Positions 7,341 through 57,668 of a DNA stretch of 64,000 nucleotides are shown piece by piece (the first letter of the stretch is position 1; the number at the start of each line of letters is the position of its first letter). Origin of the DNA: Geosiphon pyriformis uo1. Taxonomy: Eukaryota; Fungi; Glomeromycota. The translations under genes and the position numbers were made by a program. Location: assembly GCA_016748015.1 (NCBI GenBank), contig JAAOMT010000647.1:128880-192879 (forward strand), written 5' to 3'. The notes below the pieces were generated by a model. The model saw nothing but the letters and a program-made list of their open reading frames with translations, ran no database searches and had not been told where the DNA came from.

Positions 7341-7398
7341 TTAAACAATAAAAAGAGAATATAAAGACATTGTAGATGTGACAAAAGACATCAGAAAA

Positions 7399-8003
7399 AT
7401 AAAAATTACTGACAACATTTACTTACTAGCACAACAACTTTTCCAATTAATTCAACAACAAGAGGTAGAAATTACAATCAATTAACAAACCATCAGATAC
7501 ACAAACACCAAAAAAAGACTATGGGATAAAGTATGAAGAAAAACAGAAGACATTATTGACAAAATAATTGCAAAAGTGAAATTGGCAATAAAAGCACAAC
7601 CAAAAGTCATCCAATATCAAGAGTTGACCGTAAAAACTTGGAATTGGTGGATACAACAATTTCCAAAAAACTTTTGTTACTTCTACTTAGAACAACATGT
7701 GAATATTCAGAATTTACATATGGATAAAACAAAATAGTTATTCAACACAACAATACTGCAACAACTGGAACAATTTGTGGGAAAAAACCATTTGATCACA
7801 CAAGCAAGAGTCATTTATCAGCTACACACTGAATTTTAAGATCAATCAGAAATTTTACTCAACACAAAAATGAATACTGTTACTATTAACCAAATGAGAA
7901 AAAGATAACACAAATAATTATCGAAAAAGAAGTTCAAGAAATACTCAAAGATGGAGAATTAGAGTTAAAAGATTTAGGAGATCTTGACGGAGCTTAATAT
8001 TAA
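7399..8003 (+). pseudogene. ORF3 (unknown function) of copy A
   Basis: Colinear with 19499-20137 (ITDNIYLLAQQLFQ...NFCYFYL...); short internal deletion near 7900. Confidence 0.75.
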
Positions 8004-8853: not shown

Positions 8854-10956
8854 CCAGATAGAAAAGAACATCCAATAGTATATGTCAGCTGAAGTTTGAG
8901 TCCAGCAGAGAAAAACTTTGGAACACCAGCATTAGAACACTTAGCAATATACTGAGCAGTCATGAAATAGAAGAAATACTTAAACCAGAAATTTGACATC
9001 TATATGAACCATAAAAAATTGACTTCAATCTAGAAGCAAAAATTTGGAGACAATTGTTATGCTCAATAGAAGATAGAACTTTCACCATTCAAATATACAG
9101 TACAATATAAAAAGGGAAAAGAAAACAGAGATACTGACAATTTGTCACAAATGAGACAAATCTAAGAACATTTCAACTCAATAATATAACAAAAAAATGA
9201 ATACACAAAAATATTAACAACTTCAACATTATATAAATACCCAATTGTTCAAGAAGAAATTATCTCAAAAAAAACAAAACAACATCAAACAACAGTCCAA
9301 ATATTTTATCACCTACCAAAATATACTTTATTGAAAAAACAGAAAGAATTCAGATTAACCAACCAGAGTAATTACAAAACTAAAAAAAAAAACAATATTA
9401 TTCAACATGCACTCGGATTTAATAGCAGGACATTTTCATAAAGAAGCAACAATAGAAAGAACCAGAGAAAGATACTATTGGCTATTAATGTATTCAGACA
9501 TCATCCAATATGTTTAAAATTGTGATGCTTGTCAGAGAAGAAGAGGAACAAAACCCAGTGAACTATTAAGATTGATTAAAGTAGAACAACCATTTAATTG
9601 TACTAAATTTGACTTAGTCAGACTATTAACAATTACTAGCAGAGACAACAGATATATTGCAGTAGTCATGGATTATTTTACTAAATGGCCAAAAGCAAAA
9701 GCCATTCAAAGAGCAGATGCAAAATCTGTTACCAAATTTGTTCATCAAAATTTAATTTGTTGACATGAATGTTTAAAAGAATTACTATCAGATCAAGAAA
9801 CACATTTTGTAAACAGAACATTAGCCAAGTTAAGTCAAAGATTTGGAATTAAAAGACCATTATCATTACCATATTATCCACAAACCAATGGCTTAGTTGA
9901 AAAATTCAATAGAACATTGTGTAAAGCAATTGCTAAGATCAGCCAAAAAAACCAGGATAAATGGAATTTGTTCATACCACCAATATTATTTGCTTATCAG
10001 ACAATGAAACAAGACACTACACAAGCAACACCATTTGAATTAGTCTATGATAGAACAGCAACATTACCAGTAGAGATAAAAGTCAACACATATTCAACTG
10101 AGCCAATAACAGAAGACAATTTCTAAGAAATATTGTTGAAAAAAACATATGACTTAATGAAGACACTAGAAAACAAATGGCAAAGAGCAGCTGATAACAT
10201 TCAAAAGTCACAAGAAAAACAAAAAGAACAACATGATAACCAATTATCAGATAAACTAGTTGAATTCAAGATTGGAGACAAAGTATTCTTACATTGTACC
10301 AAAGTGGAAAAACAATGGAATAGAAAATTTGATTCCAAATGAGATAGACCATTTCACATAGAAAAAATTCTAGAAAATGGAGCTTATAAATTAAGATGAG
10401 ACAACAAAATCTTAGCCAAAGCAGCACATGGTAATCAACTTAAACTATATTACAAGATAACATTATTATTCACCAGTAATATTTCACAATTGAGAATACA
10501 AAAAATACTAGTCCAACCAGATAAGATTCCATAAGATCTAGAACTAATCATTATCATTAACACTAATACATCAAATTGAGCAACTAAAAGAATATAAAGA
10601 CATAGTAGACATGACAGAAGATATCAGAAAAATAAAAATTATTAACAAAATTTACTCACTAGTATAACAATTCTTTCAATTAATCTAACAACAAAAAATA
10701 GAAATTACAATCAATCAACAAACCATTAGATACACAACTACCAAAAAAAGACTACAAAATAAAATATGAAGAAAAACAGAAAACACTGTTAACAAAATTA
10801 TCACAAAAGTGAAATTGGCAATAAAAGCACAACCAAAAGTCATCCAATATCAAGAGTTAACTATAGAAATCTGGAATTGGTAAATACAACAATTTCCAAG
10901 AAACTTTTGCTATTTTTATTTGGGACAATACTTAAACATTTAGAATTTATATACAG

Positions 10957-11823
10957 TATTACTCATAGAATATAGAAAGTATATTAGCATATAAATTAGC
11001 CAATCAGAAGTAGACATAGTAAAAGTGGAATTTCAGGATTCTTCTTAGAAGAATTGTAAGATTCTAGGAATTTCAGAATTCTTATATAAGGAATCACAGA
11101 ATTTCAGAATTTCAGGATTTCTCTTAAAAAAATTGCAGAATTCCAGAAATTTCAGGATTCCTGGTGTGAAAAATTGAAATTGAGAAATCTTAATTATATA
11201 TATATAGTGGTAGTATTAGAAGTAGAAAAGACAGACTTCTTAGTTTAGATTTTATTGAAACTATTTTTTCAAATCACAAATATCAATAAATAATTATTTG
11301 CTATTGCAATTCACTTTCCACTATTACCATTTTATGTTGATAGTAATTCATACTTGATCATACTGGAACAATAGCTCTTAATCATGACTATTAATAAGAT
11401 ACTAACTTAATTGCCTTGGCTTAACTTCTTTATTTTTCTTTTATTTTTCTTTTATTTTCTTTTTTTTATTATTGTTGTGTACTAATTGATTAAAAGAATA
11501 ATGTGTAGAGTTACTAACATCAGGATATAGCACTGGTAAAAAACCCAGGAATAAGGATAGAACATTCGATTAAAGATAGCTTACCAAAAGAATTATCAGC
11601 CATTATGCTGAGAAAGAAATTGATGAAACTATGGTTTTGGGAAGCTATAGATAAAACAATCATTGAATCTTTGTTCATTATACAAAGAACTCAACCAAAA
11701 TCTTCAGATTGATAAAACCTTTAGATTGATAAAACCTTCAGAAATCACCAACTATATTACTAATTGAGCACTAAGTTACAGGTTTATTATTTGATTTAAG
11801 ACCTCAAATAATCACCTGTAACA
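10957..11823 (+). repeat. 5' LTR of copy C
   Basis: TATTACTC (TG>TA)...CCTGTAACA; direct repeat of 20151-21002. Confidence 0.95.
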
Positions 11824-11825
11824 TT

Positions 11826-11841
11826 TGGTGCTCTCTATGAG
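11826..11841 (+). promoter_or_regulatory. Primer-binding site TGGTGCTCTCTATGAG
   Basis: TGG lies 2 nt after the LTR end. Related TGGTGCT/TGGTACT sites follow the 5' LTRs of F, G, H, I and J. Confidence 0.85.
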
Positions 11842-11886
11842 ATATAAATCTACAGAGAACTAGCACCAGCAACAACTATTCCTAAA

Positions 11887-13620: not shown

Positions 13621-14199
13621 CTCATGATTGGGAAATCAATATCAAAACCCAAATTGCTGGTTTCAAATGCCAAATCAGTACCCAAATTAGGATCAATACC
13701 AACCTCATTACATCTAAATAACACACCAGCCAATTTATCAACCACCAGTATATCAAGCTCTACTTTATTAGCCAACAGCACCAGTTATCTATCAACTACA
13801 GCCACAATTAGTATATCAGCTTCAACAAATCCAAACACCACCACAAAACTCACCTCAAACCAGAATCCAAAGACCAAAAATGACACAATAAAACTGGAGA
13901 TCAGCAAGAGTTGTTTACCAACTGATCTCCAGTTTTTCAACCCAACAAACAAGATCTTATTAGCAGAATTTGGGCACTGAGTACACCCAAAACCTGAATT
14001 CTCAACACTATTTAAGTTTCCTAGTTACCTCAGAAGATGCTGTATTCAATGACTTGAAAACCATCCAAAACCATTCTCTTACTAGCAACATACCTCTCGC
14101 CATTATAACCAATGATGAATTGCTAGCAGCCATTTTTCCATTTGAATTCAAGGAGCCATCAAAAACACTTTTGTTTAGTAGAACTACCTTTAAAGAAAA

Positions 14200-14580
14200 A
14201 CCCATTACTGCCATGTACACTGATGCTAAAGTTGATGACCATTTTATTAAACTCATATTAGACAGTGGATTAGCAAACAGTATTATCACATGGCAACTCA
14301 TAGACCAATTAGGTTGCTGAGTTGATTGCACTGTTAGTGCCAGAATCATAAGAGCCAATAGAATGACCAAAACTCCCATTAGTGAAATTAATGACTTACC
14401 CATTGAAATTGATGGCATTATAGTATTTATCAAATTTCTTGTGATGGAAGCAACTCAGTATCAAGCACTCATTAGCAATAACTAGTTGTCTAAGACCAAT
14501 ACAATACTTAACTGGACTACCCAAGAGTTGTAACTCAATTAGAATGAATAACACACTTGAGTACCAGCAATCTGTGGCCA
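14200..14580 (+). pseudogene. Aspartic protease of copy C
   Basis: KLILDSGLANSII, downstream ALISNN (LLGND-like). Confidence 0.88.
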
Positions 14581-15495
14581 TTTCAAACTCAGTACTACAC
14601 TAACCACTTCACTAATTAAGTTTAAGAAAGAAGAAAAAAAACCTACCTGGGAAGCTTATTAAGTTTTTTGGGCTGACAATGATCACAATAAACTCTCATT
14701 GATTTCCTCATGGGATGACAAAAGAAAAAAAAAAAAAAAAAAAAAGAACATACCTGGGAAATTAACCAAATACTGTGGACTGACAACAAAAGCAAGTTAC
14801 TACCGAATTGGACTTGGGAAAAGAAAAAAAAAGAGAAAGAGAAAGAATCAAAACCAGTCACTACTTCAATATATATTTTATATATCTACCCTCTACCACC
14901 ACAGTCTTACTATTATTGATTAAAGCTTATATATGTCAATTGTGATAAGAAATTATTATCAATAGACATATGCTGTGGTGACAATAAAGAATACCAAATG
15001 GCAACTAAGTTTTATTGCCACTCATGTGTTCTTAAATGTTTTAGAAGACCAAAACAAGTTGAAAAATAGAATAATGAACCATGCTTGGCTTGTGAGAAAA
15101 CTTTTCTAGACAAAGAAATGTGGAATGACATTTCTGGGCAAAAAAGAACATGTGATGAATCATGTTAATACACAATTCTAATAAGTGATTGGGTTAGAAA
15201 AAAAACATCAATAGAAGCTGTCTAGAAAAGAGCTGTAAAATGTCTAGATGGTTGTTTACATAATGACAACAAAATTTGGCAAATGGCACTCACAAAAATC
15301 AAAGGAGCATTACCTAAAGAGATCAAAGTGATCAAAAACAACCCACCAGAACCCATAAAACTTGACTGGAGCCCAAACTCAGATATAGTTCTAAAACCAA
15401 TGAACCCAGAGCAATTTCACAAACACTATTAAGAATTAACACTAACTAGAAAAGTACAAAAACAATGTTTAGAGCAGTTAAACACTCAATACTGT

Positions 15496-16671
15496 TTGAT
15501 TTTCTGTGACTTTCAATATTGTAATGAGTGTGATCTTATTTACAATCCACTATTATGTATGATCTACATAATCTCAAAGAAAAATAAACCAATCAGCAGC
15601 TGTGCATCAGAATTGAAATCAATTTTTGATTCCAATTCAAACTCTGACAATGATGACAATGAAAATGCCAGTTCCAGCTCTGTTCAATATGGCAACCAAA
15701 ATAACAATAACTCAAACTCAGATTCAAACTCTAAACAATACATTGTGCTTCCTGATCTCATCAAAGAGCAAAAACTGAAATGGTTTAATAATAATAATAA
15801 AGATATTATGCCAGAACGTGCACATAATACTGATACAAAATTTGATCTGAGATATCCAGGGAAGAATGCCATTAAATTGAAACCAAATTTGTGCACTTGT
15901 ATTGATCTTAAAATAGCATTAAAAATTCTGGCAACAACAATAGTTCAACTAGCATTTAGGAATAGTTTAGCAAAAAAAGAAATCAACATTAGAGGAGGAA
16001 TAATTAATACAAGATATATAGAAAATATTATTGCAATACTACAAAATAACTCAGAAAAAGCATACATTATAGAGCCAAACAAAAAAATAGCACAAACAAT
16101 ATTTCTGCCTCTGATAAAAATAGCTCAGTTAATTTTAGTGAAAAATAAAGAAAAATTAGGGATCACAACAAGAAGAATAAGTGGATTTAGATTCATAAGT
16201 AGAATAGATGTACTAGTTAATATGGCAGAGGAAAAAGTTGTTGACAAAGGAGAAATTATCTTCACCTGTCAATTCATTTCCATTTCACTATATAATAGGT
16301 ATATGTTAGCATTAAAAAGAAAGATGAAAGATCAGTTACAGATTTTTGAAACAGAACCAACCATTTGCAAATCAGGAGAGATTGGACTTACCAATCTATA
16401 TATATCAGCCAAAAACCTGAAGCATGTCAAAATTTCCATCCACAACACCACTGAAGATGTCATTGAGATTCCAAAAAGAACTATCATCAGATATTTAAGC
16501 ACTGAAATCAAAAACCAGTCACCAGATACCATTTCAGACTTTTCACAACTTTGCAAATATGTAGATATTACATTACAAACCATATATAGACGAAATAAAT
16601 ACTATTTGCTTCAAGCAAAACAATTAAAACAAATGAACTTAGAAAATCTAAACTCATTTCAACAGATATAG
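15496..16671 (+). pseudogene. Longest open fragment: Cys motif, acidic linker, dUTPase (15808-16200) and a second beta-rich module
   Basis: CDFQYCNEC; AHNTDTKFDL, AFRNSLA, GGIINTRY, KIAQTIF, RRISGF; then IHNTTEDVIEIPKRTII. Confidence 0.9.
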
Positions 16672-16770
16672 CTAAAGATATTACTCAACAATTTTAATAA
16701 CATCATTGCTAGTGAAAACAAATTTGGCCATACTAATATTATCCAGTATTAGATCAAAACTGGAGATACA

Positions 16771-18032
16771 ATGCCAATCAAACAAAAAACATATAGAGTA
16801 CCACCAGCCAGCCATGAAATCATTTGTCAAGAAATCAATCAAATGTTAGACAACAGACTAATTCAGCCATCAATAAGTCTATGGTTATTACTACTAGTAA
16901 TAGTCTGGAAAAAAAATGGAAAAATTTGCTTTTGTATGGATTATAGAAAATTCAATGGAGTCACTTGTGAAGACAGCTATCCAACTTTACAGATCCAGGA
17001 GCTATTCAATGCTTTTGGTGAAAACAAATGGTTTTCAACATTAGATCTGGATAGTGATTACTAATAAGTAGCCATAAATTCAGCTAATAAAAAAAAATAG
17101 CATTTACCACAAGAAAAGAGAATTTTGAATTCAAAATCATGCCATTCAGCTTAATGAACACACCAGCCACATTCCAATGGCTAATGGAAATCATATACAC
17201 AAGATTACTATGGAAATCAGTAGTTGAATACTTGGATGATACTAATGTATTTTTAAAAACATTTAATAACTATTTTTATCATCTACAACAAATGTTCGAG
17301 AGACTCAGATATACAGGATTGAAATTGAATGCAATTAAGTATTTCTTTTGAAAAACAGAACTCAAGTTCTTGGAATATGTCATAAGCAAAGATAACATCA
17401 AAACAGATCCAGACAAAATTGAAACAGTCAAAAACTTTCTAGTACCAACCAACTCGACAGAACTAAGAGCATTCTTGGGATTTGCCAGATACTATTGCCA
17501 CTTTATCAAAGACTTTTCCAAACTGGCTCAACTATTATACCAGCTCTAAACAAAGAACACCAAATATGAATGGACAGAAAACCAGCAAGAAGCTTTTGAT
17601 ATACTAAGAAGAAAACTTATTCAAGCTCTAGTATTGATTTATTCAGATTACAGCAAGCCATTCATTATTACAACTAATGCATTAGGTCAAGCATTGAGAG
17701 CAGTATTATCTCAGAAAAGACTAGATGAAAGAGAACATCCAGTAGCATATGCCAGCCGAAGTTTGAGTTCAGCAAAAAAAAACTATGGAACACCAGCATT
17801 AAAATACTTAGCAATATACTGGACAGTTATAAAATAGAAGGAATACTTGAGCCAGAAATTTGACATCTACATGGACCATAAAGGATTGATTTCAATCCAG
17901 AAACAAAAATTTGGAGACAATTGTTATGCTTGATAGAAGATAGAACTTTTACCATTCAAATATACAATACATTATAAAAAGGGAAAAAAAACTAGAAATG
18001 CTGATGATTTGTTGTAAATGAAACAAATCTAA
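16771..18032 (+). pseudogene. pol: Reverse transcriptase and RNase H of copy C
   Basis: CMDYRK, FSTLDL, MPFSL, YLDD, TNALG, AYASRSL. Confidence 0.92.
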
Positions 18033-18062
18033 GAACATTTTAAACCAAAAATATAACAAAAA

Positions 18063-19437
18063 ATGAATACACAAAAACATCAACAACTTCAATATTATAT
18101 AAATACCCAATTGTTCAAGGAGAAATTATTTCAAAAAGAACAAAACAACATCAAACAACAGTCCAAATATTTTATCATCCACCAAAATATACTTTATCAG
18201 AAAAACAGAAAGAATCCAGATTGACCAACCAGAATAATCACAGAATCAGAAAAAGAAACGATATTATTCAACATGCACTCAGATCCAACAGCAGGACATT
18301 TTCATAAAGAAACAACAATAGAAAGAACCAGAGAAAATACTATTGGCTATCAATGTATCCAGACATCATTCAATACATTCAAAATTGTGATGCTTGTTAG
18401 AAAAGAGAAGGAACAAGATCCAGAAAACTATTAAGGTCAATCAAAGTGGGACAACCATTTGATTATATTGGAATTAATTTAGTTGGTTTATTAACAATTA
18501 CCAGCAGAGGCAACAGATATATTGTAATAGCCATAAATTATCTTACCAAATGGCCAGAAGCAAAAGCTATTCAAAGAACAGATGCAAAATCCATTGCTGA
18601 ATTTGTTCACCAAAATCTAATTTGTCGACATGAATGTCTAAAAAAATTACTATCAGATTAAAAAACTCACTTTGTAAATAAGACATTAGTAGAATTAAGT
18701 CAAAAATTTGGAATCAAAAGACTATTATTATCACCATACCATTCACAAACAAATAGCTTAGTTGAGAGATTCAATAGAACATTGTGTAAAGCAATTGCCA
18801 AAATCAGCCAAAAAAATCAAGATGAATAGAATTTGTTTATATCATCAGTATTATTTGCTTATTGGACAATGAAGTAAGACACTATACAAACAACACCATT
18901 TAAATTAGTATATGGTAGAACAGTAACACTATTAGTGAAAATATAAATCAATACATATCCAATAAAACCAATAACCAAAGACAATTTTCAAGAAACACTG
19001 CTGAAAAGAACATATAACTTAATGGAAACACTAGAAAACAAATGGCAGAGAACAGTTAATAACATTCAAAAGTTACAAGAAAAACAAAAAAAAAGACATA
19101 ATAACCAACTACCAGATAAACCAGTTGAATTCAAGATTGAAGACAAAGTACTTTTACATTGTACCAAAGCAGAAAAACAATGGAGTAGAAAATTTGACCC
19201 CAAATAGAATGAACCATTTTACATAGAAAATTTTTTAGAAAATAGAGCTTATAAATTAAGATAGAACAACAAAATCCTGGCCAAAGTAGTACATAGTGAT
19301 CAACTGAAACAATATTACCATACAATATCAGCATCTACCAATAATATTCCACAACTGGAAGTATAGTAAATACTAGTCTAACCAGATAAAATTTCACAAA
19401 ATTTGGAACCAATCATAATCATTAGACCAAACATGTA
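18063..19437 (+). pseudogene. Integrase of copy C
   Basis: ATG 18063 MNTQKHQQL...; HSDPTAGHF...CDAC; YLTKWPEAKA core. No chromodomain recognised. Confidence 0.9.
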
Positions 19438-19498
19438 AAATTGAACAATAAAAAAAGTATATAAAGACATAGTAAACGTGACAAAAAACTTCAGAAAA

Positions 19499-20137
19499 AT
19501 GGAAATTACTGACAACATCTACTTACTAACACAACAACTCTTTTAATTAATTCAACAATGGAATATAAAAATTACTATCAACCAACAAATCATTTGGTAC
19601 AGAGATACTAAGAAAATATCCCAATACAAGATACAGAGAAAACCGGAAAACACCATTGACAAAATAATTTTAAAAATAAAATTGGCAATAGAAGAGCCAA
19701 CAAGTATTACCACATATCAAAAACTGACCAAAAAAACATAGAAGTAATGGATACAAAAATTTCCAAGGAACTTTTGTTATTTCCACTTGGAACAACATTT
19801 GAATATTCAGAACTTATATACAAATAAAACAAAACAATTATTTGATCCAGAAATTTTACAATAACTCAAACAATTAATGGGAAAGAACAATCTAACCACA
19901 CAAACCTGAGCCATCTATCAATTACAAATTGGATTTCAAGACTAATCAGAAATCTTGCTCAATCTAGCAATGGACACCATTACTATTAACCAAATAAAAA
20001 AAATAACTAATGCCTAATTTGAAGAATTAAAAAACAAGATAACACAAGTAATTCTTGAAAAAGAAGTTTAAAAAATACTCAAAAACAGAAAATTAGAGTT
20101 AGAAAATTTAGGAAATCTCAATAAAGCTCAATATTAA
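19499..20137 (+). pseudogene. ORF3 of copy C (213 codons, in-frame stops only)
   Basis: Single frame from ATG 19499 (MEITDNIYLL) to TAA at the PPT. Internal stops are consistent with CAA/CGA/TGG transitions. Confidence 0.8.
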
Positions 20138-20150
20138 AAGGAGAAAATAA

Positions 20151-21002
20151 TGTTATTCATAGAATATAGGAAGTATATTAGCATATAAATTAACCAATAA
20201 GAAATAGATATAGTAAATATGGAATTCCAAAATTCCTCTTAAAAAAATCACAGGATTTCAAGAATTTTAGGATTTTTGTATAAAAAATTACAGAATTTCA
20301 GAATTCCAGAATTCCTCTTAAAGAAATTGCAGGATTTCAGGAATTTCAGGATTCTTGGTGTGAAGAATTGAGGAATTGAGGAATCTCAATTATGTATATA
20401 TAGTGGTAATATTAGAAGTAGAAAAGACAGATCTCTCAGTTTAGATTTTATTGAAACTACCTTTCCAAATTACAAATATTAATAAATAATTATTTGCTAT
20501 CACAATCTACCTTCTATTATCAACATTTCATGCTGATAATAATTCATACTTGACCACACTGGAACAATAGTTCTTGATTATGGCTATTGATAGAATACTA
20601 ACTTAATTATCTTGGCTTAACTTCTTTATTTTTCTTTTATTTTTCTTTTATTTTTTTTCTTTTATTGTTGTTGTATACTAATTGATTAAAGAAATAATAC
20701 ATAGAGTTATTGACATCAGGATATAGTACTAGTAAAAGACCCAGAAATAAGAGTAGAACACTTAATTGAAGATAGCTTACCAAGAGGATTACTGGCTATT
20801 ACATTAAGAAAAAAATTAATAAAACTGCAGTTTTGGAAAGCTATGGATAAAACAATTATTGAATCTCTGTTCATTATACAAAGAACTCAACCAAAATCTT
20901 CAGATTGATAAAACCTTTAGAAATCACCAACCATATTACTTATTGAGCACCAAATTATGGGTTTGTTATTTGATTCAAGACTCCAAATAATCATCTGTAA
21001 CA
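20151..21002 (+). repeat. 3' LTR of copy C
   Basis: Follows PPT AAAAGGAGAAAATAA; TGTTAT...CTGTAACA. Confidence 0.95.
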
Positions 21003-21317
21003 ATGGATTAAACAAAATGATTATTTGACACAACAATACTGCAACAAATAGAACAATTTGACTACACAAGTAAGAACTATTTATTGGCTACACACTGGAT
21101 TTCAAGATTAACCAGAAATCTTACTCAAAACAGAAATGAATACTATTACTGTTAACCAAATGGGAAAAATAACCAATGCCCAATTTGAAAAATTACAGAA
21201 CAAGATAACACAAGTAATTATCGAAAAAAAAGTTCAAAAAATACCCAAAAATAGAGAATTAAAGTTAGGAGATTTAGAAAATCTTGACAAAACTTAATAT
21301 TAAAAAGGAGGAAATAA

Positions 21318-21920: not shown

Positions 21921-22499
21921 CCAAAGATCTTTTAATTCCAATCTGATTTTCCTAAATTAACACCAACTAATGTAAGTTTTTTGATTATTGTAATAAGCTA
22001 TTATATATTATATTCTAATAAGTTGTTGAAATATTCAACAATCAAAATTCTTTTTACAATCTAGGAAACCAATTTTAAAACTAGATTATAATTTGGTCAA
22101 ATACACAATAGGTATTTTAGTTGTTATATTTTTTTTTGATATAATTCATCATTTAAATATTAAATTTAACCAGAAATTTTTATTACAGGGGATTTCATAT
22201 ATCTCTTAGATCTAAGCAATTCTTTAAAATACAAAATTATAGTCATTGAAAAATTATTTGTGAATTTAAAGTAAGTATTTACATTATAATAATGTAAGGT
22301 TATAAATAGAGTACAAATAATATTTCCAAATTCTCTGACAATTGCTCATAGTATTTTTACAATTACTTTAACACTTAGTGTGAACAATATTAATATTTGG
22401 GTTTTTGTTCTAATAATAACAACCAAATATAGTGGTAGTATAAATAAAATATTTATGGTTAATAATACCATGTTATTAACAGAAAACACATTAGCCAAG

Positions 22500-24260
22500 A
22501 TATTATATCTTTATAAAAAATTAATCATCTAAAAATTAAATTAATATTAATTGAAAGTTTTTCTAAAAATAATAATATTTTAATAATTTATCACATAATA
22601 ATATGACTTTAATAATTGCTGATTGGCTAAAATTTGATTGATTGGCATCTAAAAATTAAAGATTAATAATAAAAGTGGCTAATTTTAAACTTTAATAACT
22701 TTATAAATTATAATATAATTCAAAAAATTAAACTGTAAATGTGAAAAAAAAGAACTTAATCTATCATATTTACAGTTTAGTTTTTTAATATTATTAAAAT
22801 TGGAAGACTAAATACAATTTAAAATTATATAAATTGTTTAATAAATATAAATAGTTTATACTATATTAATAATATAAACTTAAATAATTATATTAAATTT
22901 ATTTTAAAATATATTAAAATTAGTTATTTTAATAAAAAAATTTTAACAATATTTTAAATTGTTAAAAAGTTTTTTATTATTAAATTAATTAACAAATATA
23001 ATTTAATTATTATTTAATATATAAAAACAGATTAAATATTTTTATTTGAATATAATTTAGGTATTTATTATATATAATTAATTATTTAAATTAAGATTAT
23101 ATTATATATTTATATACATAAATCAAAAAAAATAAACATTATTTATATAAATTAAAACTTATTACAAAAGTTTTAAATATATATATTATATTAAATAAAA
23201 ACTTATATAATAAATTATATAAACTATATAATATTATTTTAGTATTATTAATTAAACTACTTTTTTTTATAATAGCTTTATATTTGATTTAATACAATTA
23301 TATTTTGTCTTTGTAAATTATAATTAATTATTACATAAAATTAATCAAAACTAAAATAATATTCTTAATATTATCAAAAATTAAAACTGTTTTTACAAAT
23401 TAATTTTTGAAAATAAATTTTTTGTAAAAAACAATATGCAACTTATTATCAAAAATATAAAAGAAAAAAATTTGTAAAATTAAAAACAATAAAAGATAAA
23501 TATTTATTAGTAACTTTTAATAATTTGTAAATTTTTTTATTAAACTTATAAAGTTTTTAATATTTATTCTATAAATATAATTATGATTAAAAAATTTTAT
23601 TTTTTTATAATATAGATATATAACTTTTAGATTATATTTGTTATAAAAATATTTTTTAATCACAATTAACAACTGTTTATAAATTGTTTTTATTAAATAT
23701 ATATGTAAATTAGCTAAAAATTTGTTAATAAAATTAAATATTATATAAAAATTAAAATATTATATTAAAAAGTATAAGTTTAGTTAATATTTTTAATTAT
23801 TAAATTAATAATTATATTAATATTAGAACTAGTTTTTTATTAAACATAACATATTATTTTGTAAATATTATAAATAAAATACCAAATATTTACAAAAACA
23901 ACAATATTATTAGCCAAAAAAAATATTTTTTAAATTATTATAAAAAAAATAATAATAAGTAAATAGTTTTATTGGCCAAAATATTAATATTATTATTGCT
24001 TATAATACTTAAATGACTTTTTATTTTTGATTAAATAATTAAATTTTTTTAATATAAATAATGTTTATAATTTGTTTTTTTTCTATTTAACAATAATTAT
24101 ACAGATTTAATATTGTTAAAATAAGTTTAACAATATATATATATCAGAATAATTTAACTGTTAAAATAAATAATGATCATATTAAATGCTAATACATATT
24201 TAAAAATTAAAACAATAATTTATAATTTATTTAATATATTTTTTTATTATGAGATTTATG
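22500..24260. other. Extremely AT-rich low-complexity tract
   Basis: G/C very sparse by eye, no ORFs in the track, no resolvable repeat unit. Confidence 0.7.
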
Positions 24261-25627: not shown

Positions 25628-25919
25628 TTATTTTCTTCTTTTAATATTGAGCTTTGTTAAAATCTTCTAATTTCTCTAATTCTCCAGATTGAATTATATC
25701 TTGAACTTTTTTTTTAAGAATTATTTGTGTTATTTTAACTTGTAATTCCTCAAATTGGGCATTGGTCATCTTACTCATTTGATTAGTGGTAACTGTATCT
25801 ATTTTTAAATTGAGTAGTATTTCTGGTCAGTCTTAAAATCCAGCTTGTAATCAATATATTTTTCGTATTTGTGTGGTTAAATTGTTTTTTCTCACAAATT
25901 GTTCTAGTTGTTATAGTAT

Positions 25920-28900
25920 TGTTATGGTTGGAATAACAAGTAAATAGATAGCAAGGAAGAACAGGATTGTAGAATAATAAAAGAAATCAAATAAAATTCA
26001 ACTTTAAAGAGTAAATTAAATAAGTATGAATTCAATGTGTAAGATTAGTCTCATAAAATATCTCAGTTGCAATACTTTTTAAAAAATAACCAGGGAATTT
26101 GAAGGTAAAAGAATAGTCCGTACTGTCAACAAATGATCACATTCTAGTATAATTCTATGTCTTATATTAGTGCTCTTACAATTCAATATCAGATATCAGA
26201 TGTATTTTTCAGTCAAATTTTATTTAATAATCTTTAAATGCTGTAATTACATATTTTGGGAAAAAGGTAGGGAATAACCAATAAGTAATTTTTTATCTTT
26301 ATGATGTTCAGATACTTAAAGATAGAGAAAGAGAAATTAATGAGAAGAGATAAAGTTGTTATTTTATTTTTTTATTTTTTTTTGATTCTTATATACTTTT
26401 CTGCAGCTAAAAGATTCATCACTTATATAGCTATCAAAAGTAATTAATGATCAGATCAATGATCACTATCTAAAAATAGAGTGGTTAATTATGTGATATT
26501 AGTGGCTAATACATGTAATAATTAATAAGAAGTATAGGTTTTAACCATAATATCATCCTCTTCAAAAAGATTAAACTCCAGCAAAATCAAGCTATTTATA
26601 GTATAATTTATTTAAAAAGTTTTATTTAACTTAAAGCTAACTAGTTTGTTGAAGTCTTTTGTGGATAGAGTATATAATACTTGAGATGAAATGAGTTTTG
26701 TATTCAAAAAACCAAATCTTTGTATTAGAATTTTGGCTCTTTTAGCAATAGTTAAAACTCTTGGAACATCTAACTGTATAATGTCCAAAATTTCTGTTTG
26801 TATCTTTGAAGTTGTTTTCTTCATGAGTTTTATATTTTTTATGATTTCACCAAGACAATCATAGAGTTCTAATTGTCTTTTATATAATAAATTTTTGTCT
26901 ATAGGCAAGATTTCTTGGATTGTTTTTTCAATTGTGTTAGAAGATGAGAATATAACTGCTGTTATACTTTTTAACAAATATTTATCTATTTTATTACCAA
27001 TTTTTTTTCTTCTGATAGTGGTTTTCTTTGGTTTAATAACAGTATATATTCTATTGTTATTAGTAATAGTAGTTTGTTTTCCAATAGTCAGAGTAGCATT
27101 TGAATAGTTTTTGATCCAATACTCATGGAGAGCATAGAAGGCATTTTGAATGTTTTGATTCAAAAAATAATTGTTTATGGCAATTAAAAATACCTCTGTT
27201 TTGAAAACAGTACATTTATTTATACTTGATTTTTGCTGATTATTTGGGTTGGTATTATTATAACAGGCAACCAATCAAATTATTTATGATATTTTTTGAG
27301 TTGTGTACTATAAACAGGATAATTATTGAAGATTGTTTTAGATTGATCTTGAAGAATATAAGAACTATTGTTCAAAACTTTGTTGACTATAAAGGGTTCT
27401 TTCCACTGGCTAGAAAATTTATTACTATAAACATTATCTCTGTCTGAATGGTATTCCAATACCAAGTTACCAATACTTAAAGAAAGTGTTTTATAGGTTT
27501 TCTTCTTTTTAAGCTTTTTTTGAAACTGTTTTATCTTTTCAAAAGCAATTATTTGTGCTTTTATCAAGAAGTTAAGAATAGTACCAAAATGTTTTTGTAA
27601 TTTTCTATTGTGATCTTTTTAAAAAGTATTGTTTTAATATTAGTTTCTATTGATAGTGTTGTCATGCATCCATAGAACAGATAAAAAAGTTTATAATCTG
27701 TTATGTCATAATTTACAGTTCTATAAACAAACAAAGCTAAAGACAGTACTTTGTCTTATAAGTTGGTTTCTTTACTGGTTTTGGCTAGAGTTTTACATAG
27801 TGCTCTATAAAAATGTTTTACTAGGTCATTTGTTTGAGAGTAATAAGAAAAAAAAAGTTTATAACATATTCTCATTTTTCTACAAAGTTCTTCAACTAGT
27901 GTACTGAAAAAAGCTCTTTTTCTATCAGATAAAAGTTCTTTGAGGCAGCCATAATAGCAGATGATATCTTCATAAATGAAATTGGCTATTGAAAATGCTG
28001 TTTGGTCTGGAATAACTCTTGCTTCTACTCACTTTGTAAGATAGTTGGTAGCTGTAATAATGTATCTGTTGTCATCAGAAGTTATTGTTAAAAGTCTAAT
28101 AATATCTATATTAATTTTGTCAAATGGTTGATCAACAGAGATTGGATAGATATTTTTTTTGTGATTGGATTTATCTTTTCTTTGGTAGATGTCACAGGTT
28201 TTGATATATTCAGCAATGTCTTTTTCTAAGGTAGGCCAATAATAACAAACTAAGGTTTTCTGAATTGTTTTTGTTTTTCCAAAGTGTTTAGCTAATAAGT
28301 CAGTGTATATGTTGTATATTACAATTTCTTTTTCTTCAAATCTAATAACTCTTTGGGGGCAGTCAGGATCTTTTCTGTTTCTTTTATATAACTGGTTCTG
28401 GTGAATTAAATAGAAATTTGATTGTTTGTGCAAATGATCTCTTTGCTGTTAAGTGTAGTCTAATGGGTATTGTTCTTTACCCAAAAATTCTATTAAAACA
28501 GAATAGTTGTTCAAGTCCATTATTGTGTTTGTTTATAAGGGAGTTACTAATAATTAAGTTGGTTTGGTTGAAAAGTTGTACTATTACTGGATAGTAAGTT
28601 TGAAGAGAGCATCAACATTTTGATGATTAGCTCCTTTGTGATGTTGAATATCATAGTCAAATTCATCCAGATGGAGTATTCAGTAAATTATTCATTTATG
28701 TTCCAACTTTTTTTTGTTGTACAGCCAAACCAAGACTTAATGATCTGTTACTACTAGGAATTTCACACCAAGAAAATATTGATCCCAATAATTAATAGCC
28801 CAAACTACTGCTAAACATTTTTGTTTAGTTACTGAATAGTTTTTTTCTGCTTGTATAAGAGATCTACTGGCATATGCTATAGTATATTCTCTGCCATTTT

Positions 28901-33449: not shown

Positions 33450-35676
33450 GTATTTTTGTATCAAATAATCACTTTGTTTTATCCATATATAAGTTCTGAA
33501 TATTCAGATGTTGTCTTAAATAAAAATAACAAAAGTTTCTTAGAAATTGTTGTATCTACTAGTTCCAAGTTTTTTTGGTCAATTCTTGGTATAGTATAAC
33601 TTTTGTTTGTACTTCTATTGCCATTTTTACTTTTAGAATTATTTTGTTAATGATGTTTTTTGGTTTTCTCTGTACTTTGTATTGGGGTTTTTTCTTTGTA
33701 TCTTTATATCAAATAATTTTTTGGTTAATTGTAATTTCCATATTTTGTTGTTGAATTAGTTGGAATAATTGTTGTGCCAGTATGTGGATATTGTTAATAA
33801 TTTCCATTTTTTTGGTATTTTTTGTCACATGCTAATTTTTTATATAAAGTTTTGATGTTTTAATTTAATATGTTCATGTTGATAATTATTATTGGTTCTA
33901 AATTTCATGGAATTTTTTCTGGTTGAACTAGTATTCTCTGTATTCTCAATTGTAGAATATTATTGGTTAATAATAATACTATACTATGGTATAGTTTTAG
34001 TTGATCATTATGTGCTGCTTTGGCTAAAATTTTGTTGTTTTATTTTAATTTATAAGCTCTATTTCTTAGAATTTCTTCTATGTAAAATAATCTATCCCAT
34101 TTGGGGTCAAATTTTTTATTCTATTGTTTTTCTGCTTTGGTACAATATAATAGTACTTTGTCTCCAATCCTGAATTTTATTGGTTTGTTTGATAACTGGC
34201 TATTATGTTATTTTTTTTGTTTTTTTTGTGATTTTTGAATATTATCAGCTGTTTTTTGTCTTTTGTTTTCTAGTGTTTCCATTAATTTGTATGTTTTTCT
34301 TAATAATGTTTTTTGGAAATTGGCTTCTGTTATTGGTTTTGTTGGATATATATTAATGTTTATTTCTATTGGTAATGTTGCTGTTCTATTATAAACAAAT
34401 TCAAATAGTATTGCTTGTGTGGTATCTTGTTTCATTGTTCAATAAGCAAATAACATTGATAGAATAAACAAATCCCATTCATTCTGATTTTTTTAACTGA
34501 TTTTGGCAATTGCTTTATACAATGTTCTATTAAATCTTTCAACTAAACCATTTGTTTGTGGATAATATAATAATGATAATAGTCTCTTGATCTTAAATCT
34601 TTGGCTTAATTTTGCTAATGTTTTGTTTACAAAATGAGTTCTTTAATCTGATAACAATTTTTTTAGACATCTATGCTAACAAATCAAATCTTGGTGAGCA
34701 AATTTGGCTACAGATTCTGTATTCACTCTTTGAATTGCTTTCATTTCTGGCCATTTTGTAAGATAGTTTATGGCTACTGCTATATAATGGTTGCTTTTGC
34801 TGATTATTGTTAATAGTCCAACTAAGTTAATTCCAATTCTGTCAAATGGTTGTTCTACTTTAATTGGTTTTAGTGATTTATTAAGGTTTGTTCTTTTTCT
34901 TCTTTAACAAGTATCACAATTTTGAACATATTGATAGCCAATAGTATTTTTTTCTGGTTCTTTTTATGGTTGCTTCTTTATGAAAGTGTCCTGCTGTTGA
35001 ATCTAAGTACATATTGTATAGTATTGTTTTTTTTTTGATTTTGTGATTACTCTGAGTAGTTGATTTAGATTTTTTCTGTTTTTCTGGTATAATATATTTT
35101 GGTGAGTAATAAAATATTTGGATTGTTGTTTTATGTTGTTCTGTTTTTTTGGAGATAATTTCTCTTTAAACTACTAAGTATTAATATAGTGTTGGAATTG
35201 TTGATATTTTTGTGTATTTATCTTTTATTATATTTTTGGGTTGTAATGTTCTTAGATTTGTTTTATTTACAACAAACCATTGGTATTTCTATTTTCTTTT
35301 CTTTTTTTATAATGTACTGTATATTTGAATAGTAAAAGTTTTATTTTTTATCTGACATGGCAGTCATTTCCAAATTTTTGCTTCTGAATTAATGTCAATT
35401 CTTTGTAATCAGTGTATATGTCAAATTTTTGGCTCAAGTATTTCTTCTATTTTATAACTGCCCAATAAATAGCTAAGTGTTCTAATGCTGGTATCTTATA
35501 GTTTTTTTCAGCTGGACTTAAGCTGTAACTAGTATATGCTACTGGATGTTCTCTTCTATTGTGTCCTCTCTGTAATAATACTGCTTAACCTAATACATTA
35601 GTGGTAATAATAAATGGTTTGTTATGATCTAAATAGATTAATACTGGTGCTTAGATGAGCTTTCTTCTTAAAGTAT

Positions 35677-41600: not shown

Positions 41601-43357
41601 TAGAAAATTACAAAAACATTTTGGTACTATTCTTAACTCCTTGATAAAAGCACAAATAGTTGCTTTTGAAAAGATAAAACAGTTTCAAAAAAAGCTTAAA
41701 AAGAAGAAAATCTATAAAACACTTTCTTTAAGTATTGGTGACTTGGTATTGGAATATCATTTAAACAGAGATAATGTCTATGTTAATAAATTTTCTAGCC
41801 AATGGAAAAAACTTTTTATAGTCAACAAAGTTTTGAATAATAGTTCTTATATTTTTTAAGATCAATCTAAAACAATCTTCAATGATTATCCTGTTTATAG
41901 TACACAACTCAAAAAATATCATAAATGATTTGATTGGTTGCCTGTTGTGGTAATACCAATCCAAATAATCAGCAAAAATCAAGTATAAATAAATGCATTG
42001 TTTCCAAAACAGAAGTATCTTTAATTGCCATAAACAATTATTTTTTGAATCAAAACATTCAAAATGCTTTCTATGTTTTTCATGAGTATTGGATCAAAAA
42101 CTATTCAAATACTACTCTGACCATTGGAAAACAAACTACTATAACTGATAACAATAGAATATATACTGTTATTAAACCAAAAAAAAAGACTATTAGAAGA
42201 AAAAAAATTGGTAATAAAATAGATAAATATTTGTTAGAAAGTATAACAGCAGTTATACTCTCATTTTCTAACACAATTGGAAAAACAATCCAAGAAATTT
42301 TGCCTATAGACAAAAATTTGTTATATAAAAAACAATTAGAACTCTATAGTTGTCTTGGTAAAATCATAGAAGATATAAAACTCATGAAGAAAACAACTTC
42401 AAAGATACAGGCAGAAATTTTGAACATTATATAGTTAGATGTTTCAAGAGTTTTAACTATTGCTAAAAGAGCCAAAACTTTAATACAAAGATTTGGTCTT
42501 TTAGATACAAAACTCATTTCATTTCAAGTATTATATATCCTATTCACAAAAAACTTCAACAAACTAGTTAGTTTTAAGTTAGATAAAACTTTTTAAATAG
42601 ATTATACTATGAATAGCTTGATTTCACTAGAGCTCAATCTTTTTGAAGAGGATAATGTTATGATTAAAGCCTATACTTCTTATTAATTATTATATGTATT
42701 AACCACTGATGTTATATAATTAGCCATTCTATTTTTAGATAGTAATTATTGATCTGATTAATGATCTGACCATTGACCTAATCATTGACATGATCATTAA
42801 TCTAGTTATTAATCTAATCATTGACTATTTTTGATAGCTATATAAGCAATGAATTTTTTAGCTATAGAAAAGCATTTAAGAAAAAGAAATAAAAGAAATA
42901 AAATAACAACTTTATCTCAATTTTTTTCTTATTGCTAATTTTTTTTTCTCTATCTTCAAGTATCTGAACATCTTAAAGATAAAAGATTACTTATTGGTTA
43001 TTTTTTACTTTTTTCTTGAAACATGTAATTGTAACATTTGAAGATTATTGAATAAAATATAACTAAAGAGTACATCTGATATCTGATATTGAATTTTAAG
43101 AGTGCCAACATAAGGCATAGAATTATACTAGTATGTAATTATTTGTTGACAGTATAGACTATCTCTTTACCTTCAAATTCTCTGGTTATTTTTTGAAAAG
43201 TATAGTAACTGAAATATTTTATAAGACTGATCTTGCATATTGAATCCATACTCATTCAATTCGCTCTTTGAAGTTGAATTCTCTTTGATTCTTTTTTATT
43301 ACTCTACAATTCTGTTCTCTCTTACTATTTATTAACTTGTTGCTCCAACTTGTAACA
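35677..43357 (+). mobile_element. Full-length Gypsy family-2 copy G (7,681 bp)
   Basis: LTRs 35677-36342 and 42656-43357, perfect TSD GTAT, PBS TGGTGCTTTCTG ~36349, PPT TGAAGAGGATAA, integrase fragment 40898-41452. Confidence 0.96.
41925..42596 (+). pseudogene. ORF3 of copy G
   Basis: Near-identical to ORF3 of F; ATG 41925 overlaps the integrase stop; in-frame stops at 41931 and 42432. Confidence 0.75.
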
Positions 43358-54217: not shown

Positions 54218-55155
54218 TATTACTTGAAAAAAAAAAGCTTATCAAAGAAAGAAAGAAAAATATGATCTAAAAAAACATGAAAGAATACAAAATAATATAC
54301 AATAATATTAAATAATGTGTTATAATATAAGATAACATGTTATAAGGCAAAATAATACAAAATAACATATTATAACATAAGATAATCTGTTATAATGCAG
54401 GATAACACAGAATAATATGTAATAATGTCAGATAATGTATTATAATATAGGATAATTAGTTATAACATAAAAAAACAAAATAATAGCTAGTAAGAACAGA
54501 TGATCCAAAGCAATCCTGTAAAACTAAAAAATATGTATATATAGCAGTAGTACTAGAAGCAGAAAAGACAGAATCTCCAAACAGAAATTTATTAGTTACT
54601 ATTTCCTATTTAGAAACCATATCATTTCAAATATCAATAAATATATTTATTCAGCATCTCAAATCTAATTGCTTGCTATCAACTCTAAATATTGATAGTA
54701 ATTGATACTTAAACCACACAAAAACAATAGCTCTTGATCATGACTATTAACAAGATACTAACTTGTATTGCCTTGGCTTAATTTTTTTTATTTTATCTTC
54801 TTTTATTTTTTTGTATTTTGTTGGTGGTTTACTAAACTTTTTAAGGATTAAGCATTGAGTTATTGATGTCAAGAATTGCTTGGTAAAAGACTCTTGTGAA
54901 TGGGTAAAATGTGTAAGAATTATAAATTGCTTACCAGAGGATTGCTGGCCACTAAGCTGAGAAAAAAATTGACAGAATTGTGATTCTGGGAAGCTACAAA
55001 TAAAATAACACAGAAATCTCTGTTCATTATACAAAAAACTCAATCAAAACCTTCAGAATGCAAAAACCTTCAGATTATTACCATCTCATATTAATTAAGC
55101 ACTAAGTTATGAGTTTGTTATTTATTCTAACTACTCAAATAATTCACTTATAACA
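54218..55155 (+). repeat. Solo LTR, family-1-type 3' half with a different U3 array
   Basis: TATTACT...TATAACA; TSD ATAC/ACAC; ~20-bp GATAACATGTTATAA-type repeats at 54290-54470. Confidence 0.88.
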
Positions 55156-55365
55156 ACACTTAATTTAACATATTTTTACAATAATTTTTTTAATAACACA
55201 CCGAAAACAGAAAACAAAAATAGTAAATAATTACAAAAAACACCCAAATCCAAAAACAAATAAAAAACCCCATACTTAAAAATAATTTTCTTTATTCTTT
55301 TTTTTTAGTTAGTTACTTTTATCACGATTATTCTCTGAAATATCTAACAAATATCCCAAAAATTA

Positions 55366-56000
55366 ATGTTAGTTTTGAAAACACTTCCTGACTTATTCAT
55401 AACGATTAATAAAAGTCAAATTAGTTATATTCAAAAAGAAACCACAGCTTCAGTATTAAACAATTCTCTGAATTATCACTTTTATAGAAAAAACACTAAA
55501 AATTACACTAAAAATCAATTACCAGAACTTTTAAAACAAGGTTTAAAAAAAAACCTCTTATTTGTCCCTATAAACATTTTACCAAATGCCACAATTCAAC
55601 AAAAACTTTTACTATTTCTTAATGAACAGAACAATAAACATACCCTTATTTATAGATATTTTCATATTGGAAAGACACTTTATGAATAAAAACTGGAACT
55701 TGAAGCAACAAACCTCACTCCTAAAACAATACAAAAACAAATTTACAATAAATTCAAGACAACAGCTGGACCAACAAATACTTACTACAAACTTAGAACA
55801 GCTTTTAGATTTTATGATTTGTTTAATACTTGCAAAAATGTCCTACAAAATCCAATACTACAATTGATGAAAATTCAATATATTGGCAAACTCACAAAAC
55901 TGAAATTTTAACAATTTTCAGACCAGATTACTTTAATTATATTGGATTATTATCTTAACATCACAAATAATGCTTGGACTTTGATAAAGCTCAGTCTTAA
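55366..56000 (+). pseudogene. ORF3 of copy H (~210 codons)
   Basis: Frame continues past TAA 55687 through YYKLRTAFRFYDLF...IQYIGKLTKLKF. Confidence 0.72.
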
Positions 56001-57668
56001 GAAAAAGATTATATTACCAGTAGAATTTTAGCTATTAATTAGAATGAAATTACTCTTATAATTCTTATTATTAATTAGCATATATAATTATTATTTCAAT
56101 CATTACTTATTATTTAATCAAATTAGCAATTATTATCATTTAATCAATAATCCAATTTGTATTATAGAAATTAAGATAATCAAATTACACAATATCTTAA
56201 ACCATGTAACATAGTCAAAATTCGCCAAAATTAATGAAAATTGGCCGAAATAATTAATAGTTCAGTAAAATAACTTGTAGTTTGCTGAAATATATCTTAA
56301 GTTTACCAAAATTATAGCAAAGAAAAAAGTGCAAGTTCAAAGACTAGTACTACAACAAGTTGTATAAAAAAAGAGCTTCTTTTTTCAAGAAAATATATCT
56401 TTTTATATCTTATCATAGTATCTTACTTTAGATATTTTAATTAGAACAAATCATTTTTTACAAAGTTAAATAAAAATTAAATATTCGAAAACCAAATCCT
56501 TAAATTATTATACTTGAAATTCCCTCAACACAACTAATGTTTTAAAATTGATTAACTACCAATTTCAATAAACTATTAGTGACTCCAGACCTGAATAGAA
56601 AATGTTTTTCTTAACAAAATTCTATTTCTTTTACATTTTATTTATTTTTTATTTTTTTTCTTATCATAATCATTAAGGTAGTCTACAGACAAGATTTCTG
56701 TAAAAGAGTTGACTTTTACAGCAAAGTAACTACATATTTTTAGTGAGTTTTCAAATAAGCAATTTCTGGAAAAAAGTTGACATTTATTACAACATAACTA
56801 CATAAAGTAACTGGCACAGAATTGGCCATTCCACATATAAATCCAACAGTTTAAATTATAAGAGATAATTTGAAGATAAATTCAGTTATAAAAAATTTAA
56901 CTACTTCTTGAGAACATGAATTCACAGCAAACAAATATTAACAACATTCAAGAAAAAAAACCAAAAACCTCTGATAACATTATTGTTGTCATTGGAGTTT
57001 AAATTGGGATTAAACAGTGATTTCAACTCTGCTATATAGCAGCTGATTGGTTTTTTCTCTTCTGGAATCATGTAGATTATGCATAATAATGAATTATAAA
57101 TAAGGTCACACTTATTACAATATTAAAAGTTACATGGGATTAAACAGTAGTCACATAATTGGATGTTTAATTGTTCTAAATGCTGTTCTTATTCTTCTTT
57201 TATAGGTGTTAAATTCTGGTAGTGTTCATGGAACTTTTCTAGACCTGTCTCAATATCCAAAAATGCATCTGAATTGGGAATGAAAATAACTTTCACTGGT
57301 TCTGGTGGGTTGTTTTTTATTTTCAAGATCTCATTGGATAAAGTGTCTGCTATTTTGGCATTTACCATTTGCCAGATTTTGTCTTTTTTATGTAGATAGC
57401 CATTTAAGCAAAAGATTGCTTGATGTCACATTGTATTAATAGGTGTTTTATGACTCATCCAGTTATTGATGAGAATTGTATACTGGCATAAAGCATTGTA
57501 TGTTCCTTCTTGATTCAGAATGTTATTTCATATTTCTTTATTAAGCAATTGTTTGTCACAAGTGAAACATGATTTGTTGTTCCACTTGTCTTGTCTTTTT
57601 GGGTAGTCATAACATTTGTGGTGGCATGGCTTGCAATAATAGCGTATTCAGTAAATTTCATCAGGCAT

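What the first reader, a model, noticed from the sequence alone, without database searches (positions are those of the whole stretch)
19499..20137. Conserved non-env extra ORF (ORF3) between integrase and PPT in three divergent Gypsy families
Seen: every copy with a visible 3' end has a ~210-220-codon sense frame after integrase (A 7399-8003, B, C, D, F 26612-27274 still open, G, H 55366-56000). Family DNA is unalignable by eye, yet the C-terminal halves share a pattern: Y/F-x-x-LG (CYFYLG / LYDCLG / RYFHIG), then a helix (ARVIYQL / AKRAKILI / AFRFYDLF), then MGKITNAQF / LYTLSTKDF / IGKLTKLKF. No signal peptide or TM segment is evident, so it is unlike env. Inference: an ancestral accessory protein of this clade, perhaps a helical nucleic-acid-binding, targeting or anti-silencing factor.
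Basis: partly seen in the sequence, partly recalled or inferred. Interest (0 to 1): 0.85.

Follow-up and report, generated by a model that had tools for sequence, protein, structure and literature searches.

The report
Unknown accessory gene in fungal retrotransposons
Jumping genes in this fungus carry an extra, long-conserved gene just before their right-hand end; it encodes a soluble protein matching no known family, which likely binds DNA and may help the element switch itself on.

Summary
The extra ORF is real. All 7 integrase-bearing Gypsy elements in the window (most likely Geosiphon pyriformis) carry a sense ORF3 of about 210-240 codons between integrase and the 3' LTR. The focal copy is decayed (8 stops), but open copies of each family are on record. 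Family-1 ORF3 shows coding constraint: transversion pN/pS 0.45 against 0.76-0.95 in LTRs, and few indels. Families 1 and 3 are homologous (hhalign 87%, E 4e-6). Family 2 is only borderline (p about 0.05), so the three-family claim is not fully shown. A metagenomic contig has the same RT-RNaseH-integrase-ORF3-PPT-LTR layout with an open ORF3 24-29% identical in the core. There is no transmembrane segment, so it is not env. The core folds confidently (pLDDT 90) as an all-alpha domain with no significant Pfam or structural match. Weak hints (ParB/Spo0J Z 4.7, sigma-F region 4 Z 4.4, DUF1016_N E about 0.01) point to a helix-turn-helix DNA binder. Best guess: a trans-acting regulator of its own LTR (about 0.38). 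Expression and function are untested.

The parts
19469..20137 (+). Focal ORF3 (family 1, element B); 8 internal stops; probable start at 19469, in-frame ATG at 19499
17262..19444 (+). 3' part of pol of element B (RT, RNase H, integrase); integrase-frame stop at 19442-19444, present at this place in 4 of 4 family-1 copies
20137..20150 (+). Polypurine tract of element B, directly after the ORF3 stop
20151..21002 (+). 3' LTR of element B (83.5% identical to the 5' LTR)
10957..11823 (+). 5' LTR of element B, followed by a TGG-starting PBS-like site; B is inserted in the ORF3 of element C
7369..8003 (+). ORF3 of element A (family 1), with stops and a frameshifting deletion near the 3' end
10602..10956 (+). 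5' part of the ORF3 of element C (family 1)
21003..21303 (+). 3' part of the ORF3 of element C
33453..33807 (-). 5' part of the ORF3 of element D (family 1), interrupted by element F
25641..25919 (-). 3' part of the ORF3 of element D
26522..27178 (-). ORF3 of element F (family 2, 218 codons, 1 internal stop); reads through the PPT into the LTR that starts at 26552
42030..42686 (+). ORF3 of element G (family 2, 2 internal stops); LTR starts at 42656
55324..56031 (+). ORF3 of element H (family 3, start approximate); reads through the PPT into the LTR that starts at 56012
54218..55157 (+). Nested family-1-like solo LTR between the integrase and the ORF3 of element H

Best explanation
ORF3 is a separate, conserved accessory gene of a Gypsy LTR-retrotransposon lineage, and its soluble, predicted all-helical core likely binds DNA through a helix-turn-helix-like motif and would act in trans on the element's own LTR to keep it transcribed in a methylated genome. 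Shown: position, a separate frame, coding constraint, homology of families 1 and 3 and of two metagenomic proteins, and no transmembrane segment. Predicted: a helical core of about 120 residues. Inferred: DNA binding by the three helices at core residues 24-43, 50-65 and 70-84, with the conserved G-K-T-N turn and the R and F that follow it; nuclear import or extra DNA contact by the basic stretch near residues 35-60; the LTR U3 repeats as target; activation or anti-silencing as outcome; expression from a subgenomic RNA.
For: Real gene: transversion pN/pS 0.45 (integrase 0.23, LTR 0.76-0.95); 2 indels in 597 aligned codons against 43 in about 1090 for LTRs. Changes by codon position are 63/28/57 for focal against A (p 0.0008), and 213/203/207 in LTRs (p 0.89). 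Open full-length copies are on record: 22 of 120 listed for family 2 and 63 of 120 for family 3 by length. Ancient: L001 has RT-RNaseH-integrase, a 317-nt spacer, an open 230-codon ORF3, PPT and LTR. Its integrase is closest to family 3 (58%) and its ORF3 groups with family 3 (100/100, with a long-branch warning). Fold: core model pLDDT 90, pTM 0.84. DNA-binding helical domains recur among the structural neighbours: Spo0J/ParB 1vz0 Z 4.7, rmsd 3.6, 89 aligned over the whole model; sigma-F region 4 1l0o_C Z 4.4, rmsd 2.4, 57 of 57 on model 19-83; Orc6 Z 5.3. DUF1016_N, named as a guess beforehand (note), is the Pfam family most often hit in family 3 (13 of 62, best E 0.0028) and aligns in register on the Y-x-x-I-G and R-x-x-Y-x-x-F helices (E 0.011 and 0.0094). 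A basic 15-mer (net +4 to +6) lies at residues 33-63 in all 8 proteins examined. Context: CpG observed/expected is 0.07 in the window, and family-1-type LTRs have swapped U3 parts with different short repeats, like VANC targets (PMC5735166, abstract).
Against: No fold match is significant: best Z 5.7, to a designed protein, and the tool warns that Z under about 13 may be generic for helical bundles. No Foldseek hit reaches E 0.001. DUF1016_N scores (12.9-14.6 bits) are far below the 32.8 cut-off. The 13 of 62 members are not independent: an unrelated family hits 7 of 32 family-2 members at E 0.0075. 4 of 40 block shuffles reach the hhalign score, and E. coli YhcG alone gives E 0.58. The two metagenomic proteins are acidic overall (pI 5.4 and 5.9). 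Motif sharing between the pre-ORF3 spacer and the LTR holds in L001 only, in 0 of 4 window tests. U3 repeats were above chance in only 6 of 13 LTRs, in none of the family-2 or family-3 LTRs and not in the focal one. The pN/pS pairs share the focal copy, and transition ratios do not separate the ORF3 frame from the +1 frame (0.65 against 0.69).
Confidence: 0.38

Rival explanations
1. ORF3 is an RNA-binding accessory protein: it coats or exports genomic RNA, or suppresses RNAi, acting like a helical nucleocapsid or a Rev-type factor.
For: Both Atlas queries list the closterovirus coat protein PF01785 (0.93) and the translation repressor PF01818 (0.90-0.91). PNPase helical domains appear at Z 5.5 and 4.6. 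Basic N-terminal stretch. Small RNAs are made at TE loci in a related fungus (10.1101/2021.03.30.436303, passages).
Against: Atlas recognition values (2029, 2186) are under the 2300 mark and shared features under 170. No closterovirus coat protein among the top 50 rows of either viral fold search or in the Pfam scans.
Confidence: 0.2
2. ORF3 is an integration-targeting or nuclear-import cofactor that tethers the pre-integration complex to chromatin or to other copies, in place of a chromodomain.
For: It is co-inherited with integrase. No chromodomain hit was seen on the integrase-end ORFs scanned. Elements are heavily nested, and 2 of 4 family-1 ORF3s are themselves insertion sites. A helix-turn-helix-like core would fit this too.
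Against: Nesting is expected in a repeat-dense genome. ORF3 is a separate frame, not fused to integrase. No test of binding to integrase was run.
Confidence: 0.17
3. ORF3 acts by protein-protein contact with a host factor or with Gag (a Vpr/Nef-type adaptor or a copy-number control factor) and does not bind nucleic acid.
For: Small, soluble, helical, fast-diverging (18-29% core identity between deep branches), placed over the PPT and U3 as nef is (recalled).
Against: No positive evidence for any partner; the weak hints lean toward DNA-binding domains.
Confidence: 0.17
4. ORF3 is an env or env-like membrane protein for spread between cells.
For: Sense position between pol and the 3' LTR, where env lies (PMC7264820, parts 1-2).
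Against: Highest 19-residue hydropathy 1.29, 0-2 Cys; no env family in Pfam.
Confidence: 0.02
5. ORF3 is a passenger: a once-captured sequence or a chance frame with no role in transposition.
For: All window copies are broken. F against G evolves neutrally (transition pN/pS 1.12).
Against: Neutral change between recent dead copies is expected. Constraint between subfamilies, indel scarcity and conserved motifs across unalignable DNA and a metagenomic element show selection.
Confidence: 0.04

Closest known systems
Additional 3' ORFs of plant Gypsy elements (Athila/Bagy2 env-like; Grande, RIRE2, Retand antisense ORFs with TRP28) and fungal Boty
   Same: Extra ORF between pol and the 3' LTR, kept in most copies; nuclear or DNA-binding roles proposed (PMC7264820 parts 1-2; PMC11963269 passages).
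   Different: This one is sense yet has no transmembrane segment, has no TRP28 or SMC hit, is short, and often reads through the PPT into U3.
ORF3s of bdelloid rotifer LTR retrotransposons (env, GDSL, DEDDy, TM, coiled-coil)
   Same: Sense ORF3 in elements whose pol can carry dUTPase (PMC5408684 passages; dUTPase here).
   Different: No esterase, exonuclease or transmembrane signature here.
VANC anti-silencing proteins of Arabidopsis VANDAL DNA transposons
   Same: Functional model only: a fast-diverging TE-encoded protein acting on family-specific short repeats in a methylated genome (PMC5735166 abstract).
   Different: Different TE class and kingdom; no sequence similarity seen; activity untested here.
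DUF1016_N (YhcG N-terminal domain, PF17761) and ParB/Spo0J-type helix-turn-helix domains
   Same: Y-x-x-I-G helix and later R-x-x-Y-x-x-F helix align in register; Spo0J matches the whole core at Z 4.7.
   Different: All scores are sub-threshold; the nuclease domain of YhcG (PMC1189080 passages) is not part of ORF3; homology is not established.
Foamy virus Tas/Bel1 and HIV nef (recalled, from no call)
   Same: Accessory ORF at the 3' end overlapping the PPT and U3; Tas activates its own LTR and an internal promoter.
   Different: No sequence or fold similarity seen; an analogy of layout only.

Membership tests
Ty3/Gypsy LTR retrotransposon (carrier element) | Paired LTRs, PBS and PPT | tested here: met
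Ty3/Gypsy LTR retrotransposon (carrier element) | RT and RNase H before integrase | tested here: met
   protease, RT and integrase Pfam hits
env / env-like ORF | Transmembrane segment and Cys-rich ectodomain | tested here: not met
   highest KD19 1.29, 0-2 Cys in 8 proteins
env / env-like ORF | Expression from a spliced subgenomic RNA | not testable with these tools
   no RNA run to lay reads from
DUF1016_N (PF17761) | Pfam gathering score 32.8 bits | tested here: not met
   12.9-14.6 bits; best E 0.0028
DUF1016_N (PF17761) | Remote profile-profile homology | tested here: inconclusive
   E 0.0094-0.011, probability 4%, 4 of 40 block shuffles as high
ParB/Spo0J-type helix-turn-helix | Structural match to the DNA-binding domain | tested here: inconclusive
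   1vz0_A Z 4.7, rmsd 3.6, 89 aligned
ParB/Spo0J-type helix-turn-helix | DNA binding | not testable with these tools
   needs EMSA or ChIP
Enzymatic or TRP28 extra ORFs (GDSL, DEDDy, PF04195) | Pfam domain hit | tested here: not met
   none listed (25 of 42 families shown)
VANC-type anti-silencer | Sequence-specific loss of methylation on cognate copies | not testable with these tools
   bench test
VANC-type anti-silencer | Family-specific short repeats in non-coding parts | tested here: inconclusive
   above chance in 6 of 13 LTRs, all family-1-type or L001
Closterovirus coat protein (PF01785) | Sequence or fold match | tested here: inconclusive
   Atlas features 0.93 twice; not listed in Pfam or viral fold results

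The most novel reading that the evidence does not exclude
A Gypsy lineage of Glomeromycotina-type fungi took up a bacterial DUF1016_N/ParB-like helix-turn-helix domain as a third gene and uses it as a retrovirus-style transactivator or anti-silencer. Each subfamily's protein reads its own U3 repeat (and an internal promoter), which would help explain the LTR explosion in Geosiphon.
Probability: 0.15. Interest if true: 0.85.

Novelty: new variant of a known kind. Interest (0 to 1): 0.56.

Why it matters
Extra 3' ORFs are known in plant and animal LTR elements, but I found no description of a conserved, sense, non-membrane one in a fungus. This one defines a protein family with no Pfam entry and no significant fold match. 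It accounts for several hundred 'hypothetical proteins' in the G. pyriformis annotation (126, 192 and 199 hits), which are therefore probably TE genes rather than host genes. If it is a sequence-specific LTR regulator, it gives a testable way for retrotransposons to expand in heavily methylated genomes of this fungal group.

Tried and rejected
No whole genome is held, so genome-wide dN/dS and context counts were not possible. ORF3 as a C-terminal extension of Pol: rejected. It shares the integrase frame in A and B, but a stop lies at the same place in 4 of 4 family-1 copies and the frames differ in C and D. Pfam and PHROGs scans gave no consistent family. PDB sequence searches gave only importin-5 at E 0.013 and 0.53. 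The full-length model (pLDDT 76, N-terminal part 42-63) had no Foldseek hit at E 0.001 in PDB or BFVD and a best VIA Z of 5.1 on generic helix pairs. For the core model, BFVD gave none at E 0.001; HTH, DUF3102 and ParB rows were at E 1.2-2.9. The family-2 protein was not folded (both jobs went to the family 1/3 group). No RNA holder was listed for 26400-27400; this is no evidence. No relatives were found in viral or prokaryotic contigs with two peptide patterns each; these scans are weak. An internal promoter sharing motifs with the LTR was seen in L001 only. Earlier scan findings: none. Paper searches that found no description of this ORF; subscription journals, Repbase and Dfam were not searchable, and no supplements were read. 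The script stopped with an error at its last comparison, after the values quoted were printed.

Full report
Setting. The window is a nest of decayed Ty3/Gypsy elements, 12-36% GC, with CpG at 0.07 of expectation. All 120 listed hits of each of three ORF3 searches are Geosiphon pyriformis hypothetical proteins (120 of 126, 192 and 199 hits), so the window most likely comes from that fungus (inferred; no genome is held). A paper on these fungi reports striking LTR expansions in Geosiphonaceae and Ambisporaceae (PMC11952901, passages).

Observation. Seven elements show an integrase and each is followed by a sense ORF3: four of family 1 (A, B = focal, C, D), two of family 2 (F, G) and one of family 3 (H). 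Element B spans 10957-21002 and sits inside the ORF3 of C; element F sits inside the ORF3 of D; a solo LTR separates H's ORF3 from its integrase. The focal frame has 8 internal stops, mostly opposite Q, W or R in intact relatives, as expected from C-to-T and G-to-A decay. ORF3 is a separate gene: the integrase frame stops at the same place in 4 of 4 family-1 copies, about 24 nt before the probable start. In family 1 it ends just before the PPT; in families 2 and 3 it reads through the PPT and stops inside U3.

Constraint. Between the focal ORF3 and five other family-1 pieces, transversion pN/pS is 0.45, against 0.23 for integrase and 0.76-0.95 for LTRs read in three frames. Indels number 2 in 597 codons against 43 in about 1090. 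These pairs share the focal copy. For focal against A alone, changes by codon position are 63/28/57 (p 0.0008). Transition ratios are uninformative (0.65 in frame, 0.69 in the +1 frame), and F against G looks neutral (1.12), as recent dead copies should.

Homology. Families 1 and 3 align over 185 columns (87.2%, E 3.9e-6) and beat shuffled and reversed controls. Family 2 does not pass; it aligns in the expected register but at p about 0.05. Its integrase is also the most distant (36-45% to the others, against 48-50% between families 1 and 3), so homology is plausible but unproven. A profile search of 1.84 billion proteins gave 111 hits. Of 95 new ones, 21 were under 48% identical to the six reference proteins. 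Of 10 looked up, 8 were G. pyriformis (further subfamilies among them) and 2 were unnamed metagenomic proteins, P0399 and P0403. Contig L001 encodes P0403 after RT, RNase H, integrase and a 317-nt spacer, fully open and reading through the PPT into the LTR; L002 holds a partial relative. In an ORF3 tree of 14 rows the metagenomic proteins group with family 3 (100/100, long-branch warning), matching the integrase identities. The Atlas lists a 98-member Mucoromycota cluster first for P0403 (0.94, 176 shared features, recognition below threshold), a lead to a wider family.

The protein. It has an N-terminal helix and two strands (low confidence), a basic stretch, and a helical core. The core alone folds at pLDDT 90. 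Y102, N145, F160 and L167 (P0403 numbering) are the majority residue in 6 of 6 subgroups; G108, K143 and R155 in 5 of 6. It has no transmembrane segment, so it is not env. No Pfam, PHROG, PDB or BFVD match is significant. Weak hints agree: Spo0J/ParB covers the whole core at Z 4.7 and sigma-F region 4 matches three helices at rmsd 2.4; DUF1016_N, which I had guessed from memory of its motif before testing, recurs in family 3 and aligns in register. None passes its control: top Z values go to unrelated helical proteins, 4 of 40 block shuffles match the hhalign score, and an unrelated family recurs as often in family 2.

Mechanism. I favour a DNA-binding trans-regulator of the element's own LTR (0.38). 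The step from fold to DNA binding is inferred from the hints above. The step to the LTR rests on context: strong CpG loss here, TE methylation in Rhizophagus (10.1101/2021.03.30.436303, passages), and family-1-type LTRs that share about 600 bp of the 3' part but differ in U3, with distinct short repeats, as VANC targets do (PMC5735166, abstract). In L001, TTGCCCT occurs twice before ORF3 and three times in the LTR (0 of 200 shuffles; the motif was picked by eye). This sharing did not hold in 4 window tests, and U3 repeats were above chance in only 6 of 13 LTRs. RNA binding (0.2), integration targeting (0.17) and a protein adaptor role (0.17) remain open.

Comparison and verdict. Extra 3' ORFs are a known kind (PMC7264820, parts 1-2 of 3; PMC11963269, passages; PMC5408684, passages). 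This one differs in being sense, soluble, non-enzymatic by the scans run, and fungal. Seven paper searches found no description of it, with the limits of that library. Verdict: a real, apparently undescribed accessory gene family; a new variant of a known kind; function unproven. Interest 0.56.

Noticed in passing
window 8017-8853, 10957-11823, 57669-58498, 54218-55157, about 62255-63139: Family-1-type LTRs share about 600 bp of their 3' part (70-74%) but carry different U3 segments with different repeated motifs (GAATTT/CCAG, TGTTATAA, CACATTGC), suggesting U3 swapping.
   Followed up: partly
L001 2258-2285 and 3403-3570: TTGCCCT occurs twice in the spacer before ORF3 and three times in the LTR, nowhere else; a possible internal promoter sharing sites with the LTR.
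   Followed up: partly
window 15433-16671: The family-1 pol carries a dUTPase domain upstream of RT (Pfam E 5e-12).
   Followed up: no
window 10956/21003 and 33453/25919: Two of four family-1 ORF3 copies are interrupted by nested elements within about 10 codons of the same position.
   Followed up: no
window 55290-55310: A pyrimidine run ending in AG lies just upstream of the family-3 ORF3 start, a candidate splice acceptor.
   Followed up: no
window 22001-24000: A very AT-rich stretch (12% GC) with an inverted repeat at 22680-22827.
   Followed up: no
protein hits: Many G. pyriformis gene models fuse ORF3 to integrase, dUTPase or LTR-derived text, probably by false introns that skip stops.
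   Followed up: partly
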